The notes under the pieces are model-generated. The model saw nothing but the letters and a program-made list of their open reading frames with translations. It had not been told where the DNA came from and did not search any database. A program made the translations under genes and the position numbers. From Cyanobacteria bacterium LVE1205-1 (GTDB taxonomy: Bacteria > Cyanobacteriota > Cyanobacteriia > CAIUCS01), in contig CP089922.1 of assembly GCA_041879355.1 (NCBI GenBank), positions 462,172-526,171 on the forward strand: a DNA stretch of 64,000 nt, written 5' to 3'. Positions 13,265 through 18,634 of the stretch are shown here, piece after piece; within the stretch, counting starts at the first letter, position 1, and each line of letters opens with the position of its first letter.

Positions 13265-14310
13265 GTGTGGGTTACTTCTTCTTTCAATAACATTCGGGTT
13301 CCTACCATTACAGCACTGGGAAATTTTGATGGTATCCATCTAGGACATCGCCAAGTTATTCAGCCAGTCCTGCCCCGTGATCTCAATTCTGATCAACGGT
13401 GGGGAGACGAGAAAAATAGTGTTCCTGAGTCCATTGGTGAGCCCCCTTACTCCACTGTTCTTACATTTTCGCCCCATCCCCAAGAGTTTTTCTCCGGAAA
13501 ACCCCGGTTACTTTTATCACCGTTGACTGAGAAAATAAGGCAACTGGCATTCCTTGGCGTGGAACAATTGGTATTACTCCCCTTCAATCAAGAGTTATCC
13601 AACCTGACTCCCCAAGCCTTTGTGGAAACTATTTTATTGGATTTGCTTAAGTGTCAAAAAATTTCCATTGGAGAAGACTTTAGATTTGGGTATCAACGGA
13701 CAGGAACAGCAGCAGATTTAAGGGCGATCGCGGAACGTTTTGGTATTCCAGTTACCCTTGTTCCGCTCCATACCCACAATCAAGAACGAATTAGTAGTTC
13801 TGAAATCCGAGCAGCACTTGAATCTGGTCAATTGGAAAGGGTAAACTCCCTTTTAGGGCGTTCTTATACCATTCAAGGACAAGTAATACCAGGAAAACAA
13901 ATTGGGCGCACTTTAGGCTTCCCCACCGCAAACCTGAAAATCCCATCGGAAAAGTTTTTACCATGCTCAGGGGTATATTGTGTTTGGGTATGGGAGTTGA
14001 TGAATCTAACCACAGCATGGCACCAAGGTGATTCTTTCTCTATTCCTTATCACACCATGGCAACGGATGGGTGGGAACGACGACCAGGGGTGATGAATAT
14101 TGGATATCGTCCCACCCTGGGGGGACGCAACAGAGTATTGAAGTTCATTTATTAGATTGGACTGGAGACTTATACGGAAAAACATTGGTATTGAGTTTAG
14201 AAAAGTTTTTGCGCCCAGAACAAACGTTGTCATCATTACCCGCTCTTCGGAATCAAATTGCGGTTGATTGCCAAATTGCCCGTCATTTTTTTTCGCTTTC
14301 TTCTCGGTAA
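13265..14310 (+). CDS. ribF: Bifunctional riboflavin kinase / FAD synthetase RibF; frameshift at G6 run near 14118
   Basis: N-terminal GNFDGIHLGH; C-terminal riboflavin-kinase motifs (GFPTANL, EVHLLDWTGDLYGK) continue in the +1 frame. Confidence 0.85.
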
Positions 14311-14520
14311 TAAACGGTTACAACTAAACGATAGAAAAGTATTTGCAATGGAGACCCATTGGACATCCCGATGTATCCATTAATCATCATTCTTCATTCA
14401 TACAATCTGGCAGATTCAGGAGATAAAGTGGGATTATCGCACCCTTTATCTGGTAGCGTAGAATATATCTTCAGTTAAAAATATTAATCTAGGTTTAGTG
14501 AGTCCACTGGGAGAAATAGA

Positions 14521-14709: not shown

Positions 14710-14793
14710 AGGCAGTCACCCCAGATTGAGCCGTTACAGAATGGTGTGGGTAATCCCCACCATTATATTTCCCAGTCCTACCCCCAATCCCCC

Positions 14794-15384
14794 ATGTCTG
14801 TCTTTGAAGGAACTTTTTTATCCCCAGAATCTTTACGATTTGCCCTAGTCATTGGTCGATTTAACGACCTAGTTACTAACAAATTATTAGAAGCATGTCA
14901 GGATTGTTTGCGTCGGCATGGTGTAGACCCAAACCCCCATGGTAATCAAGTAGACTATGCTTGGGTGCCAGGGAGTTTCGAGATTCCCTTGGTTGCTCGA
15001 CAGCTTGCCCTAACCCATCGTTATGATGCCATTATTTGCTTAGGTGCAGTCATCCGTGGACAAACTCCCCATTTTGACTATGTGTCAGCCGAGGTGGCAA
15101 AGGGAGTGGCAGCAGCCAGTTTTCAAACAGGAGTACCAGTTATTTTTGGAGTGCTTACGGTTGACTCACTGCAGCAGGCATTGGAACGGGCTGGAATTAA
15201 GTCAAATCTGGGGTGGGAATATGCCATGAATGCAATTGAAATGGGGACTTTGATGCGCCAGATTCGTCAACTTCCAAATCACTCCATGGCTGATAATCAG
15301 GCGATCGCTCCTGGAAATTTTTTATCTCACCAAGACAATACAACACAATTGTCATCAGGATTTATCCCAGGTTCAGCCTCATAA
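14794..15384 (+). CDS. ribH: 6,7-dimethyl-8-ribityllumazine synthase RibH, with an unusual ~45-aa C-terminal tail
   Basis: [36 protein letters not shown] lumazine synthase motifs; start placed at ATG 14794. Confidence 0.85.
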
Positions 15385-15561: not shown

Positions 15562-16326
15562 ATGCCTTCTGCCAAAATCCTAATTGTTGACGATGAGCCG
15601 GCAATTCTTAATCTGATTCAACGCTTTCTGTCAAAACAGTCAGAAGAATCGGGTGAACTAAAGTATCAGGTTGAATCTGCTAAAGATAGTACTACTGCCT
15701 TGATTGTTTTTGAACAATTTAACCCGGATCTGGTCATATTGGATGTGAACCTGCCGGATGGCAATGGCTATTTATTATGTGAAGAAATGCAAAGACGTAC
15801 GGGGGTTTTTGTTCTAATGTTAACCAGTCGTACAGATTCATCCGATAAGGTGACTGGTTTTTCTAAAGGGGCAGACGATTATTTTACCAAACCATTTGAC
15901 CTAGAAGAATTAAAGTACAGGGTTGAAGCAATTCTGAAACGACAACGAATGATTGCCCCGTCTGAACCCCAATGCCTCAGATATGGTCCTTTAGCCATTG
16001 ATCCAGTCCGACGGGAAGTAACCTTAGATCATCAATTGATTGGTTTAACTGCCCTTGAATTTAATTTATTATATTTCTTAGCCAGTGAACCAGGGCGAGT
16101 TTGGCAGCGGTCAGAACTAATTGAAAAAGTATGGAAGTTTGATTATGTAGGGAATGACCAACGGGTAGTGGATGTACATATTGGTCAAATCCGTAAAAAA
16201 ATTGAAGGGAATTTGGCACAGCCTTCGATGATTCATACCGTGCGCGGAGTGGGGTATAAGTTTGAATTGACTTCCATCGATCGGACGACCACGTCTTCAG
16301 TGATTTCTCCATCGGAAAAGTTGTAA
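15562..16326 (+). CDS. OmpR-family two-component response regulator
   Basis: Receiver domain (ILIVDDE, phospho-acceptor D in LVILDVNLPDGNG) plus winged-helix C-terminus (VHIGQIRKKIE...TVRGVGYKF). Confidence 0.85.
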   Translation: MPSAKILIVDDEPAILNLIQRFLSKQSEESGELKYQVESAKDSTTALIVFEQFNPDLVILDVNLPDGNGYLLCEEMQRRTGVFVLMLTSRTDSSDKVTGFSKGADDYFTKPFDLEELKYRVEAILKRQRMIAPSEPQCLRYGPLAIDPVRREVTLDHQLIGLTALEFNLLYFLASEPGRVWQRSELIEKVWKFDYVGNDQRVVDVHIGQIRKKIEGNLAQPSMIHTVRGVGYKFELTSIDRTTTSSVISPSEKL

Positions 16327-16349: not shown

Positions 16350-17639
16350 CTAACCATTTCCTTGCAAGATGTACTTAACGGTGGTTAAAGCCTCTAATCC
16401 AATTAATCCCCTACGGTATCCTTTCTGGTTAGAAATACCTAACGCGATGGCTCGTCCACCCTTAGGGTTACGATAAAACCGCGGAGACGCATTAATATAC
16501 GAAAATGCAGCGATTATTCCAGTTGCAAATTGACGACTTTCCTGATAAGACTCTGTTGCTAAACAATCAGCATGACCGCTACTATGGGAATTCATCCAAG
16601 CGATAGCCCCATCTAATGAGTCAATCCACTTAAAGGCAACTATCTTTTTAAAGTAGGGCTCCGTCCATTCATTAGTCTTGGTCAGGGATACATCAGGAAA
16701 TTCCGATACCAACTCCTCATCTCCCCGAATTACAAAGCCTTTTTCCCTTAGACTATTCCATAACATAGATAAAACAGTATGATTAAGGGTGGGATCGAGT
16801 AAAACTTTTTCAATTGCATTAACTCGGTCGGGTTCTCCTTGGTGACTATCCAAAATCATAAAACGAACCAAATCAAAACTAGCTGAAGCTGACCAATAGA
16901 GATAACAGTTTCCAATGCCAGGTTTTAAGACCGGAGTAGCCGCTTGACGCATCACCTGTTGAACTAGGCTAGGACGACCATAGGGAATTACTAGGTTAAT
17001 ATACTGATCCTGGATAATCAAATCTCGGGTGGAAGTACCTTGTTCGGTGGTCAACAATTGCAAACACGTTGGAGAAAATCCTGCCCCATCCAAACTAGTT
17101 TGTAAAATTTCAGCAATTATTCCGTTAGTATGGGCAGCCTCTGTTCCACCCCGTAGGATCACGCTATTACCTGTTTTAAGGCAAAGACCTGCAACAATCG
17201 CCCCCAGTTCAGGAAAAGATTCATAAATGAGGGCAATAACCCCCAGTGGTACTAATTGAGTATATGTTTGACATTGATCCACCTGATAGATGGAGTTCAT
17301 AATCGGTTGAGTTGGATCCGATAATTCACCCAATCGCTGCAAAATTTGAACTGTTGCCTGGATTCGTTCTGGGGTCAACTTTAACCAATCAACTAACAGT
17401 TCAGGCACTGCCATCTCCCGACTAGCTTCTAGGTCTAGCGTATTTGCTTCAAGAATGGCATTCTGATGCTTCTTAATCGCTGATGCCATTAGATGTAAAG
17501 CATGGTTGCGATCCACTCCTTTACTTTTAGCTAAATCCGTAGCGGTTTCGTAGGCGGTACGAGTCACACTGGCAATGACTTCTGACCCTACAGTAAAATC
17601 TGCCTTCATAACTTCAACATGAATAGGAAAGCTAAACAA
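16350..17639 (-). CDS. Gamma-glutamyl phosphate reductase (ProA)-like protein, apparently lacking the catalytic Cys
   Basis: ProA-like motifs (GVIALIYES, LKTGNSVILRGG, NASPRF...GLEALTT); the position of the catalytic Cys reads VNAIEKVLL. Confidence 0.6.
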   Translation of the reverse strand: MFSFPIHVEVMKADFTVGSEVIASVTRTAYETATDLAKSKGVDRNHALHLMASAIKKHQNAILEANTLDLEASREMAVPELLVDWLKLTPERIQATVQILQRLGELSDPTQPIMNSIYQVDQCQTYTQLVPLGVIALIYESFPELGAIVAGLCLKTGNSVILRGGTEAAHTNGIIAEILQTSLDGAGFSPTCLQLLTTEQGTSTRDLIIQDQYINLVIPYGRPSLVQQVMRQAATPVLKPGIGNCYLYWSASASFDLVRFMILDSHQGEPDRVNAIEKVLLDPTLNHTVLSMLWNSLREKGFVIRGDEELVSEFPDVSLTKTNEWTEPYFKKIVAFKWIDSLDGAIAWMNSHSSGHADCLATESYQESRQFATGIIAAFSYINASPRFYRNPKGGRAIALGISNQKGYRRGLIGLEALTTVKYILQGNG

Positions 17640-17986
17640 GTTAATGGAGGTATTACCGCCATTTCAAGAATCAGAGAAGTGAATGGTAATATAATATAGG
17701 CTAAAAAATAATTCACCCATTTCCTTGGCTAAAGCCGAGAGGATTCTAAAGCCAAAGGGTGATTGTGGCGTAGCCCGTCTTACAGTATCGAACCGAACGA
17801 TCAATCCCTCGACAATGTATTCTTAGTGTAGCTTCTTATGCCCTCAAGGGCAGAGCTTTCAACCCATTATTTTTGGTAATCTATGGTTTTTCCTAGTTGT
17901 AAGGCATGATTTATCATCCTATCTTGTTGAATACATCCCCCGTTATGTAGCCTTTCTCGAGAAACCTGAGTCAAACAAGTGCAATT

Positions 17987-18525
17987 ATGTCCAACATCAA
18001 AACTATTTTGCCTGAACGTTTCCCTGAAGAAGATCATCCATCTAACCCCCATCATTCTACTCATGTTGTCATTCATACCGACGGCAGTTGTATTGGAAAT
18101 CCTGGACCGGGGGGATGGGCAGCAATTTTACAATGGGGTTCCCATCGTCGTGAAATTAGCGGACGGTTCAGGGAAACAACTAATAACCGCATGGAACTTT
18201 GGGGGCGATCGCAGCATTGGAAGTTCTTACCCAGCCTTGCAACATTGACCTTTACACCGATAGTTCCTATGTTCGGGACGGAATTACCCGATGGATTAAA
18301 GGGTGGAAGAAAAATGGTTGGCGAACTGCGAATAAACAACAGGTTAAAAACCGAGACCTATGGGAACGATTACTATGTGCCCTAGAACGACATCAATTCA
18401 GTCAGACGGTCACATGGCATTGGGTTAAAGGTCATGCAGGGGTTTCATTAAACGAAGAAGTTGATCAATTAGCAAATCATGCAGCTCGTTCCGTAACTAA
18501 CAATGACCCTGTGGATCAGGGTTAA
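17987..18525 (+). CDS. rnhA: Ribonuclease HI; frameshift at G5 run near 18205
   Basis: [28 protein letters not shown] then AIAALEVL in next frame, [16 protein letters not shown]. Confidence 0.85.
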
Positions 18526-18561: not shown

Positions 18562-18634
18562 TGGAGGTTAGCGGACTCGAACCGCTGACATCCTGCTTGC
18601 AAAGCAGGCGCTCTACCAACTGAGCTAAACCCCC
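18562..18634 (-). tRNA. tRNA-Ala (anticodon TGC)
   Basis: Reverse complement folds as a 73-nt cloverleaf: acceptor GGGGGTT with G3:U70, D-arm AGCTCAGTTGGTAGAGC, anticodon loop TTTGCAA, T-arm GGTTCGAGTCC. Confidence 0.95.

What the first reader, a model, noticed from the sequence alone, without database searches (positions are those of the whole stretch)
16350..17639. ProA paralog that appears to lack the catalytic cysteine
The protein aligns along its length with gamma-glutamyl phosphate reductase, but the segment where the catalytic Cys-Asn pair is expected reads VNAIEKVLL (Cys to Val) and the RPNV nucleotide-binding segment is altered (FPEL). It may be a non-catalytic ALDH-fold paralog. The alignment is from memory of the E. 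coli sequence, so it needs confirming.
Basis: inference. Interest (0 to 1): 0.5.

Follow-up and report, generated by a model that had tools for sequence, protein, structure and literature searches.

The report
Catalytically disabled ProA paralog of cyanobacteria
This gene encodes a well-conserved cyanobacterial copy of the proline-pathway enzyme ProA that has lost its key reaction residues, so databases that call it a proline enzyme are probably wrong and its real job is unknown.

Summary
The ORF on the minus strand (probable start ATG 17609, 419 aa) has the ProA fold: TM-score 0.90 to E. coli GPR. It reads Val at the catalytic Cys column and FPEL in place of RPNV.

Every charged or polar residue that is invariant in canonical ProA around the active site is replaced: Arg→Trp75, Arg→Phe132, Arg→Gly191, Arg→Tyr210, His→Tyr236, Lys→His256, Cys→Val263 and Asp→Arg380.

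This is not a private mutation or a decaying gene. All 120 closest database homologs carry the same substitutions. At least 589 species genomes, almost all labelled cyanobacterial, encode a relative. The clade is monophyletic, and non-synonymous change is low while synonymous sites are saturated.

In 78 of 78 related loci with upstream DNA, the gene follows a small unannotated membrane protein with a zinc-ribbon-like motif. The gap is about 4 nt where the ProA-like start is an ATG. That partner is absent from this window, as are proB and a canonical proA.

I read it as a repurposed ALDH18-fold protein that cannot perform ProA chemistry. Its actual function is inferred only. I could not show that a canonical proA sits in the same genome.

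The parts
16350..17609 (-). Coding sequence of the Cys-less ProA-like protein (419 aa plus TAG stop at 16350..16352), counted from the probable ATG start
   Evidence: ORF. A 419-aa protein is 100% identical (P0001). NCBIfam NF001221 scores 314.7 bits and Pfam Aldedh matches. AlphaFold2 mean pLDDT is 92.5 and TM-score is 0.90 to E. coli GPR 8zok.
17610..17639 (-).
   Evidence: Homologs align from the ATG onward and are 419-421 aa long.
16821..16823 (-). Val263 (GTT) at the column of the catalytic Cys nucleophile
   Evidence: PDB alignments. The column is V in 95% of the paralog set and C in 100% of the canonical set. Codon.
17208..17216 (-). Phe132-Pro133-Glu134 in place of the canonical Arg-Pro-Asn; the Arg is the ALDH18 active-site Arg
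   Evidence: The review PMC12041015 names this Arg as the replacement for the ALDH oxyanion-hole Asn.
16902..16904 (-). Tyr236 in place of the invariant His of the G-x-C-H motif
   Evidence: Canonical H 100%, paralog Y 92%. The motif GNCYLYW is seen throughout the family.
16470..16472 (-). Arg380 in place of the Asp of NASTRFTDG, the Asp reported to bind gamma-glutamyl phosphate in Drosophila P5CS (D715)
   Evidence: Canonical D 97%, paralog R 97%. D715/R712 are named as G5P-binding residues in PMC11061531. Mapping D715 onto this column is my inference from the STRFxDG motif.
17385..17387 (-). Trp75 in place of a canonical invariant Arg
   Evidence: canonical R 100%, paralog W 100%.
16980..16982 (-). 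Tyr210 in place of the invariant Arg of the I-P-R-G motif
   Evidence: canonical R 100%, paralog Y 90%.
16842..16844 (-). His256 in place of a canonical invariant Lys
   Evidence: canonical K 100%, paralog H 87%.
17037..17039 (-). Gly191 at the column of the conserved Arg of the 'REE loop', which stacks on the adenine of NADPH in P5CS
   Evidence: R->G191. Gly191 is invariant in alignment A1. The role of R525 is described in PMC8963878.
17139..17177 (-). K145-E157 (KTGNSVILRGGTE), the glycine-rich segment of the cofactor-binding half, retained from canonical ProA
   Evidence: Direct comparison (Tm KSGNTILLRGGSD, Ec KTGNAVILRGGKE). G147 and N148 are conserved at 90% or more in both families.
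17640..17986 (.). Upstream intergenic region where the partner gene would be expected; no ORF and no remnant of it
   Evidence: Three-frame translation is full of stops. tblastn and a profile HMM of the partner find nothing in the whole window. Promoter-like and terminator-like sites do not exceed chance.

Best explanation
The gene encodes a member of a monophyletic sister family of gamma-glutamyl phosphate reductase (ProA, ALDH18 fold), found almost entirely in genomes labelled cyanobacterial. The fold is intact, but the active site has been re-lined.

Replaced residues: the Cys nucleophile, the neighbouring invariant His, the active-site Arg, three further invariant Arg/Lys, and the Asp that holds the substrate. 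They have become Val, Tyr, Phe, Trp, Tyr, His and Arg. These new residues are themselves conserved.

The protein therefore cannot form the thioacyl-enzyme intermediate or hold gamma-glutamyl phosphate, and it is not a proline-biosynthesis enzyme.

I think it most likely acts as a ligand-binding pseudoenzyme with a more aromatic pocket. In nearly all other genomes it would work together with a small membrane protein (zinc-ribbon-like motif plus two hydrophobic helices) encoded immediately upstream. The pair would act as a membrane-tethered sensor or regulator rather than a biosynthetic enzyme.

Shown: fold, residue replacements, family conservation, purifying selection, partner linkage in other genomes, absence of the partner here.

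Inferred: loss of ProA activity, ligand binding, physical interaction with the partner, regulatory role.
For: Fold and homology:
- E 6e-63 to T. maritima ProA.
- AlphaFold2 mean pLDDT 92.5, TM-score 0.90, rmsd 2.4 A to E. coli GPR 8zok.

Active-site loss:
- Cys->Val263 and RPNV->FPEL.
- In 39 paralog against 91 canonical sequences, the canonical invariants are replaced by W75, F132, Y210, Y236, H256, V263, P376 and R380, each conserved at 72% or more in the paralogs.
- Of 100 columns conserved at 80% or more in canonical ProA, 60 are retained. Retention is 27 of 36 in the N-terminal/Rossmann part and 29 of 56 in the catalytic and C-terminal parts. The losses include all charged active-site residues.
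- The mechanism needs the Cys (PMC8963878). Arg, a His and Cys are named as the ALDH18 active-site residues (PMC12041015).

Not a pseudogene:
- All 120 best homologs share the motifs.
- At least 589 species genomes encode a relative.
- The clade is monophyletic in a neighbour-joining tree.
- Against the closest relative, pN is 0.13 and pS is 0.84, which is saturated.
- The window protein keeps every column that is invariant in both family alignments.

Partner:
- A 115-135 aa protein with CPC...CxRC and two hydrophobic helices lies upstream on the same strand in 78 of 78 loci that have upstream DNA.
- Where the ProA-like start is an ATG (44 loci), the median gap is 4 nt.

Not linked to proline genes:
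- No proB or canonical proA in the window or in 80 loci of up to ±10 kb.
- Canonical proA sits in proB-proA operons.
Against: - No experiment exists on any family member that I could find.
- The replacement residues (Tyr236, His256, Tyr210, Arg380, Glu134, plus retained Cys235, Asn264, Glu267, Lys268) are conserved as tightly as a catalytic site would be. A new enzymatic activity fits equally well.
- Cofactor binding is unclear. The glycine-rich K-T-G-N...L-R-G-G-x-E segment is retained, but the adenine-stacking Arg of the REE loop is Gly191.
- The partner gene is missing from this window. Here the protein either works alone or the partner is encoded elsewhere in the genome.
- NCBIfam's ProA equivalog model NF001221 still scores above its cut-off, 314.7 against 289.
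- I could not show that genomes with this paralog also carry a canonical proA.
Confidence: 0.6

Rival explanations
1. It is a neofunctionalised enzyme. It would be an ALDH-fold oxidoreductase that works without a covalent thioester, for example by direct hydride transfer from NAD(P)H with Tyr236/His256/Lys268 as acid-base residues. The substrate would be a different and more hydrophobic one, possibly at the membrane.
For: - The substituted pocket residues are themselves 87-100% conserved, and the segment V-N-A-I-E-K is nearly invariant.
- The glycine-rich cofactor segment and N373/F378 are retained.
- Conservation over the whole length is high: 167 columns at 93% or more in the main group.
- A membrane partner is linked, and a fatty-acid desaturase gene is a neighbour in 43 of 80 loci.
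Against: - No precedent for this chemistry in the ALDH fold was found here or is known to me.
- The adenine-contacting Arg is lost.
- No substrate can be named.
- Neighbouring genes other than the partner are not constant.
Confidence: 0.3
2. It is still a working gamma-glutamyl phosphate reductase (an isozyme of ProA) that uses another nucleophile such as Cys235 or a non-covalent mechanism.
For: - NF001221 (ProA equivalog) scores above its cut-off.
- Sources name family members glutamate-5-semialdehyde dehydrogenase.
- Cys235 of the G-N-C motif is retained.
- The Synechocystis literature treats both sll0373 and sll0461 as proA.
Against: - The nucleophile is not the only loss. All invariant Arg/Lys, the His and the substrate Asp are replaced too.
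- TIGR00407 scores 268 against a cut-off of 317.
- The gene is never next to proB in 80 loci.
- Cys235 is also present in canonical enzymes, where it is not the nucleophile.
Confidence: 0.04
3. It is a decaying pseudogene, or the Cys->Val is a sequencing artefact of this assembly, which does show frameshifts in neighbouring genes.
For: Two nearby genes (rnhA, ribF) are broken at G-homopolymers.
Against: - The ORF is intact.
- The substitution needs two base changes.
- The same residues occur in all 120 closest homologs and hundreds of genomes.
- pN is far below pS.
- The window protein's 13 departures from highly conserved family columns are all similar-residue swaps such as Ala/Ser, Ile/Leu and Phe/Trp.
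Confidence: 0.01
4. It is a 'prozyme'-type regulator. The dead paralog would form hetero-oligomers with the active ProA (or bind ProB) and tune proline synthesis.
For: - The C-terminal strand region that forms the oligomerisation element of this fold is partly conserved (G401).
- Dead paralogs regulating their active relatives are a known pattern (own knowledge).
Against: - There is no genomic linkage to proA or proB.
- The constant linkage is to a membrane protein instead.
- A recent study argues that ProB and ProA do not form a channelling complex (title and abstract only of PMC11573504).
Confidence: 0.05

Closest known systems
Gamma-glutamyl phosphate reductase ProA / GPR domain of P5CS (ALDH18, EC 1.2.1.41)
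   Same: Same fold and length. Sequence identity is 28-35% to bacterial ProA, with TM-score 0.90 to E. coli GPR. Shared residues are N56, D59, P121, G123, E130, P133, G147, N148, G211, G233, C235, H346, N373, F378 and G401.
   Different: It lacks the Cys nucleophile, the CH-motif His, the RPN Arg, three more invariant Arg/Lys, the REE-loop Arg and the substrate Asp. It is not in a proB-proA operon. It forms a separate monophyletic clade.
Catalytic-Cys-lacking ALDH-superfamily proteins such as mammalian ALDH16A1 and the cephalopod/scallop Omega-crystallins (own knowledge, not tested here)
   Same: ALDH-fold proteins that are conserved although they have lost the nucleophile, and that are thought to act through binding rather than catalysis.
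   Different: They belong to different ALDH families and are eukaryotic. None derives from ProA, and none is paired with a small membrane protein carrying a zinc-ribbon-like motif.
Synechocystis sp. PCC 6803 'proA' pair sll0373 / sll0461
   Same: Two genes are annotated proA in one cyanobacterium (PMC12386471). Published RT-PCR primers suggest sll0373 carries the canonical 'LLTTRE[ED]' REE-loop motif. They suggest sll0461 may carry the paralog signature 'TLDL'.
   Different: The assignment of sll0461 to this family rests on translating primers, one of which appears to have lost a base in the text. I rate it at about 65%. The reported phenotype of an sll0461 disruption (viable, more PHB; Tyo et al. 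2009 as cited in PMC3859321) cannot be firmly transferred.

Membership tests
ProA / gamma-glutamyl phosphate reductase (ALDH18) | Overall sequence and fold homology to ProA | tested here: met
   NF001221 scores 314.7 bits against a cut-off of 289. PDB E-value is 6e-63. TM-score is 0.90 to 8zok.
ProA / gamma-glutamyl phosphate reductase (ALDH18) | Score above the TIGR00407 proA trusted cut-off | tested here: not met
   268.2 bits against a cut-off of 317.45.
ProA / gamma-glutamyl phosphate reductase (ALDH18) | Catalytic Cys nucleophile in the x-C-N-A-x-E motif | tested here: not met
   Val263.
ProA / gamma-glutamyl phosphate reductase (ALDH18) | Active-site Arg of the R-P-N motif and invariant His of the G-x-C-H motif | tested here: not met
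   Phe132 and Tyr236. Both columns are 100% R and H in 91 canonical sequences. Their role is described.
ProA / gamma-glutamyl phosphate reductase (ALDH18) | Substrate-binding Arg and Asp of the S-T-R-F-x-D-G motif | tested here: not met
   The Arg is kept as Arg377, but the Asp is Arg380 and the Thr is Pro376.
ProA / gamma-glutamyl phosphate reductase (ALDH18) | NADPH-binding elements | tested here: inconclusive
   The glycine-rich K-T-G-N..L-R-G-G-x-E segment is retained. The REE-loop Arg is Gly191.
ProA / gamma-glutamyl phosphate reductase (ALDH18) | Genomic pairing with proB (common, not universal) | tested here: not met
   No proB in the window or in 80 related loci. proB-proA operons are seen for canonical genes.
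ProA / gamma-glutamyl phosphate reductase (ALDH18) | GPR enzyme activity or complementation of a proA mutant | not testable with these tools
   This needs an experiment.
Cys-less cyanobacterial ProA-like clade (defined here) | Signature motifs N-T-L-D-L-E, Y-E-x-[FL]-P-E, G-N-C-Y-L-Y-W, V-N-A-I-E-K and S-P-R-F-x-R | tested here: met
   All are present in the window protein.
Cys-less cyanobacterial ProA-like clade (defined here) | Placement inside the monophyletic clade | tested here: met
   Neighbour-joining tree. Identity is 61-77% to clade members and about 28-35% to canonical ProA.
Cys-less cyanobacterial ProA-like clade (defined here) | Gene for the small membrane protein with a zinc-ribbon-like motif immediately upstream on the same strand | tested here: not met
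   Present in 78 of 78 other loci with upstream DNA. Absent from the whole 64-kb window.

The most novel reading that the evidence does not exclude
The Cys-less ProA clade and its upstream membrane partner with a zinc-ribbon-like motif form an undescribed two-protein module found across cyanobacteria. It would be either a new cofactor-dependent enzyme for a hydrophobic, membrane-associated substrate or a metabolite sensor that influences carbon/nitrogen storage. The reported PHB increase on disrupting sll0461 would be its phenotype. One of the two 'proA' genes in model cyanobacteria would then be wrongly assigned in annotations and metabolic models.
Probability: 0.3. Interest if true: 0.75.

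Novelty: new variant of a known kind. Interest (0 to 1): 0.55.

Why it matters
Hundreds of cyanobacterial genomes, and probably the model strain Synechocystis 6803, carry this gene under the name glutamate-5-semialdehyde dehydrogenase. NCBI's equivalog model still accepts it.

If it cannot make glutamate semialdehyde, then proline-pathway reconstructions, isozyme assumptions and interpretations of 'proA' expression or knockout data in cyanobacteria are partly wrong.

A strongly conserved, re-lined ALDH-fold pocket tied to an unannotated membrane protein points to an unknown piece of cyanobacterial physiology. It can be tested directly with knockouts, binding assays and a complementation test.

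The full-text searches I ran found no paper that notes the missing catalytic residues.

Tried and rejected
1. Canonical proA in the same genome.
- The window has none and neither do the 80 fetched loci.
- I tried to obtain canonical ProA from oxygenic cyanobacteria. I queried with a Vampirovibrionales ProA, then with a hit labelled Coleofasciculaceae. That hit proved closest to Vampirovibrio-type proteins. No named oxygenic-cyanobacterial ProA appeared.
- Look-ups of large contigs returned unnamed metagenome records.

2. The plasmid collection gave only canonical ProA from other phyla.

4. Scanning metagenomes with the published sll0461 primer gave four chance matches with no ProA-like gene.

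5. The literature search for the E. coli GPR structure paper ('EcGPR') returned unrelated papers. 'sll0462' gave nothing. Tyo et al. 2009 is not held.

6. The partner protein has no Pfam, NCBIfam or PDB sequence relative.

7. Promoter and terminator scans around the gene gave nothing above chance.

8. I considered a relocated nucleophile at Cys349 (H-A-D-C). I rejected it because that Cys is not conserved in the wider clade.

9. My first guess was that the Asn of R-P-N is the oxyanion-hole residue. The review's structural mapping to the Arg corrected this. The review's conserved His appears to lie about 33 residues before the Cys. The His I find invariant is 27 residues before it. I report only my own alignment for the His.

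Full report
**What is at the coordinates.**
An uninterrupted ORF runs from 17639 to 16350 on the minus strand. Homologs are 419-421 aa and a 100%-identical database protein is 419 aa. The real start is therefore most likely the ATG at 17609.

Pfam sees only the N-terminal half as an aldehyde dehydrogenase. NCBIfam's ProA equivalog NF001221 scores 314.7 bits, above its cut-off of 289. TIGR00407 scores 268, below its cut-off of 317.

An AlphaFold2 model built on 62 family sequences is confident, with mean pLDDT 92.5 and pTM 0.90. It superposes on E. coli GPR 8zok with TM-score 0.90, and on the other solved ProA/P5CS structures ahead of any other ALDH.

HMMER alignments to T. maritima, B. thailandensis and E. 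coli ProA are gapless around the active site. They put 'EPDRVNAIEKVLL' under 'RPGTCNAAEKLLV', and 'YESFPELG' under 'YESRPNVT'.

The Val codon is GTT, two changes away from a Cys codon. There is no nearby alternative Cys.

All 120 best hits among 5.8 billion proteins have Val (a few Ile) at the Cys column and F/L-P-E at the RPN site.

A scan of one genome per prokaryotic species found at least 589 genomes encoding a relative. The kept loci span Leptolyngbyales, Elainellales, Nostocales, Oscillatoriales, Chroococcidiopsidaceae and others. In a search of 1.84 billion cluster representatives, about 25 of the best 150 clusters belong to this type, and those with names are all cyanobacterial. The rest are canonical ProA at 28-34% identity.

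I aligned 39 paralog and 91 canonical sequences. Canonical residues that are 97-100% invariant are replaced as follows:

| Canonical residue | Paralog residue |
|---|---|
| Arg | Trp75 |
| Arg (R-P-N motif) | Phe132 |
| Arg (I-P-R-G motif) | Tyr210 |
| His (G-x-C-H motif) | Tyr236 |
| Lys | His256 |
| Cys (nucleophile) | Val263 |
| Asp (T-D-G motif) | Arg380 |

One search adds Asn→Glu134, the REE-loop Arg→Gly191, Glu→Ala318 and Glu→Phe389.

Of 100 columns conserved at 80% or more in canonical ProA, 60 survive in the paralog consensus. Retention is 27 of 36 in the N-terminal/Rossmann part and 29 of 56 in the catalytic and C-terminal parts.

The ProA mechanism is as follows. The Cys attacks the acyl phosphate, a thioacyl enzyme forms, and NADPH delivers a hydride (PMC8963878). 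A review names Arg, a His and Cys as the ALDH18 active-site residues (PMC12041015). R712 and D715 of Drosophila P5CS are reported to bind the substrate (PMC11061531). On this basis ProA chemistry and gamma-glutamyl-phosphate binding are not credible for this protein. That conclusion is an inference from sequence, not a measurement.

**It is not a decaying gene.**
The paralogs are monophyletic in a neighbour-joining tree with a long stem. Against the closest relative (77% identity) the non-synonymous proportion is 0.13, while synonymous sites are saturated at 0.84.

The window protein keeps every column that is invariant in both family alignments. It departs at 13 of 167 highly conserved columns, against a median of 3 for other members. 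All 13 are similar-residue swaps such as Ala/Ser, Ile/Leu and Phe/Trp.

The replacement residues are themselves conserved at 72-100%. V-N-A-I-E-K and G-N-C-Y-L-Y-W are nearly invariant. The pocket is therefore under selection for something.

**Genomic context elsewhere.**
I clustered ORFs within 5 kb of the gene in 80 loci. A small ORF lies immediately upstream on the same strand in 78 loci. The two exceptions start at a contig edge.

Its product is about 115-135 aa. It has an invariant Y-P-C-P-C-R-R-R-G...G-C-x-R-C-Q-Q segment, which reads as a four-Cys zinc-ribbon-like motif, followed by Y-P-Y-K-x-x-W-R-W and two hydrophobic helices. Both the zinc-ribbon label and the membrane helices are my reading of the sequence.

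Where the ProA-like start is an ATG (44 loci), the median distance from the small gene's stop is 4 nt. In 38 of the 44 the gap is 0-9 nt. That spacing is typical of an operon with coupled translation.

The small protein has no Pfam, NCBIfam or PDB relative.

Other neighbours are less constant:
- a fatty-acid desaturase in 43 of 80 loci
- a PF06838 PLP enzyme in 42
- ribH in 32
- a DHH/CBS/PolyA-polymerase protein in 29

proB is never nearby. Canonical proA genes that I looked up sit directly after proB.

**Context in this window.**
The gene is convergent with an OmpR-type response regulator (15562..16326), with ribH (14746..15384) beyond it. Upstream there are 346 nt without an ORF, then rnhA on the other strand.

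The partner gene is absent from the entire 64 kb, by tblastn with all 78 partners and by a profile HMM on the six-frame translation. The closest relative, L001, does have it. The pair has therefore been separated, or the partner lost, in this lineage.

There is no canonical proA or proB in the window.

**What it most likely does.**
I commit to a repurposed ALDH18-fold protein that no longer takes part in proline synthesis. It would act through binding in its re-lined, aromatic pocket, normally together with the membrane protein.

Cofactor binding is open. The glycine-rich K-T-G-N...L-R-G-G-x-E segment is the best-conserved stretch between the two families. However, the Arg that stacks on the adenine of NADPH in P5CS is a Gly here.

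The main rival is a new enzyme activity using the conserved Tyr, His, Lys and Arg residues. I rate it at about 0.3. A working ProA isozyme, a prozyme-type regulator of ProA, and a pseudogene are all much less likely. The reasons are given under each rival.

**Link to model organisms (tentative).**
Synechocystis 6803 has two genes treated as proA, sll0373 and sll0461 (PMC12386471). I could not fetch their sequences, so I translated the published RT-PCR primers.

The sll0373 primers encode V-K-D-V-E-H and L-L-T-T-R-E-[ED]. Patterns like the latter occur only in canonical P5CS/Vampirovibrio-type ProA in my sets.

The sll0461 forward primer is printed with a gap. If one base was lost there, it encodes T-L-D/E-L-V-V-S, which resembles the paralog signature N-T-L-D-L-E-A-S. 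The reverse primer encodes L-D-A-D-L-P, and the 370-bp spacing fits residues 57 to 181. The ungapped frames give a stop codon or motifs found in neither family.

I put about 65% on sll0461 being the Cys-less paralog. If so, the report that its disruption is viable on minimal medium and raises PHB would be the first phenotype for the family. That report is Tyo et al. 2009, as cited in PMC3859321, PMC3766872 and PMC8342905.

**What could not be done.**
The searches that could have shown it were exhausted or unavailable.

The full-text searches I ran found no paper that mentions the missing catalytic residues in cyanobacterial ProA paralogs. A phylogenetic study of ProA counted one ProA gene per cyanobacterium and did not discuss the paralog in the passages I read.

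**Verdict.**
This is a new variant of a known kind: a conserved, catalytically disabled or neofunctionalised ALDH18 clade, widely misannotated as ProA. Interest is moderate, because the family is broad and linked to an unannotated partner, but its function is still unknown.

Noticed in passing
window 17987..18525 (+): rnhA is split into two overlapping ORFs (17987..18385 and 18199..18525) that match RNase H model positions 3-48 and 49-140. The break falls at a run of five G ('ctttgggggcgatcgc', about 18198-18204). It is either a homopolymer sequencing error or a genuine frameshift.
   Followed up: partly
window 13265..14400 (+): ribF stops after flavokinase model position 70 of 124. The rest of the domain ('IEVHLLDWTGDLYGKTLVLSLEKFLRPEQ') continues in another frame right after a run of six G ('CCCTGGGGGGACGC', about 14115-14128). 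This is a second G-homopolymer frameshift within 5 kb, which suggests assembly indel errors or ongoing gene decay.
   Followed up: partly
L001-L080, about 400-500 nt upstream of the ProA-like gene (e.g. L001:546-1001): A conserved, unannotated protein of 115-135 aa. It has Y-P-C-P-C-R-R-R-G...G-C-x-R-C-Q-Q (zinc-ribbon-like), Y-P-Y-K-x-x-W-R-W and two hydrophobic helices. It has no Pfam, NCBIfam or PDB relative. It is always encoded just before the Cys-less ProA-like gene.
   Followed up: partly
window 18562..18634 (-): A lone tRNA-Ala(UGC) lies between rnhA and a UPF0176/rhodanese gene. It is not part of an rRNA operon and is the only Rfam or tRNA hit in the 64 kb.
   Followed up: no
proteins P0147, P0168, P0172, P0184, P0189, P0213, P0230, P0237, P0253, P0267: About ten other 50%-identity cluster representatives outside the cyanobacterial clade also lack the catalytic Cys (Ser, Ala, Gly or Pro instead). 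ProA-like proteins without the nucleophile may therefore have arisen several times.
   Followed up: no
P0035, P0116, L027: Family members that are 62-65% identical to cyanobacterial ones are labelled Actinomycetota, Candidatus Obscuribacterales or Candidatus Sericytochromatia MAGs. This is probably mis-binning or mislabelling rather than true occurrence outside oxygenic cyanobacteria.
   Followed up: no
L081/L082 (P0442, GCA_036703295.1): A canonical proB-proA operon sits on a contig labelled Coleofasciculaceae cyanobacterium. Its ProA is 73-75% identical to Vampirovibrio proteins. The contig or the label may be misassigned, or the gene may have been transferred.
   Followed up: partly
window 16350..17609 (-) and family: NCBIfam equivalog NF001221 accepts this Cys-less protein (314.7 against a cut-off of 289). 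Annotation pipelines therefore name the family glutamate-5-semialdehyde dehydrogenase. Only some members are named 'aldehyde dehydrogenase family protein'.
   Followed up: yes
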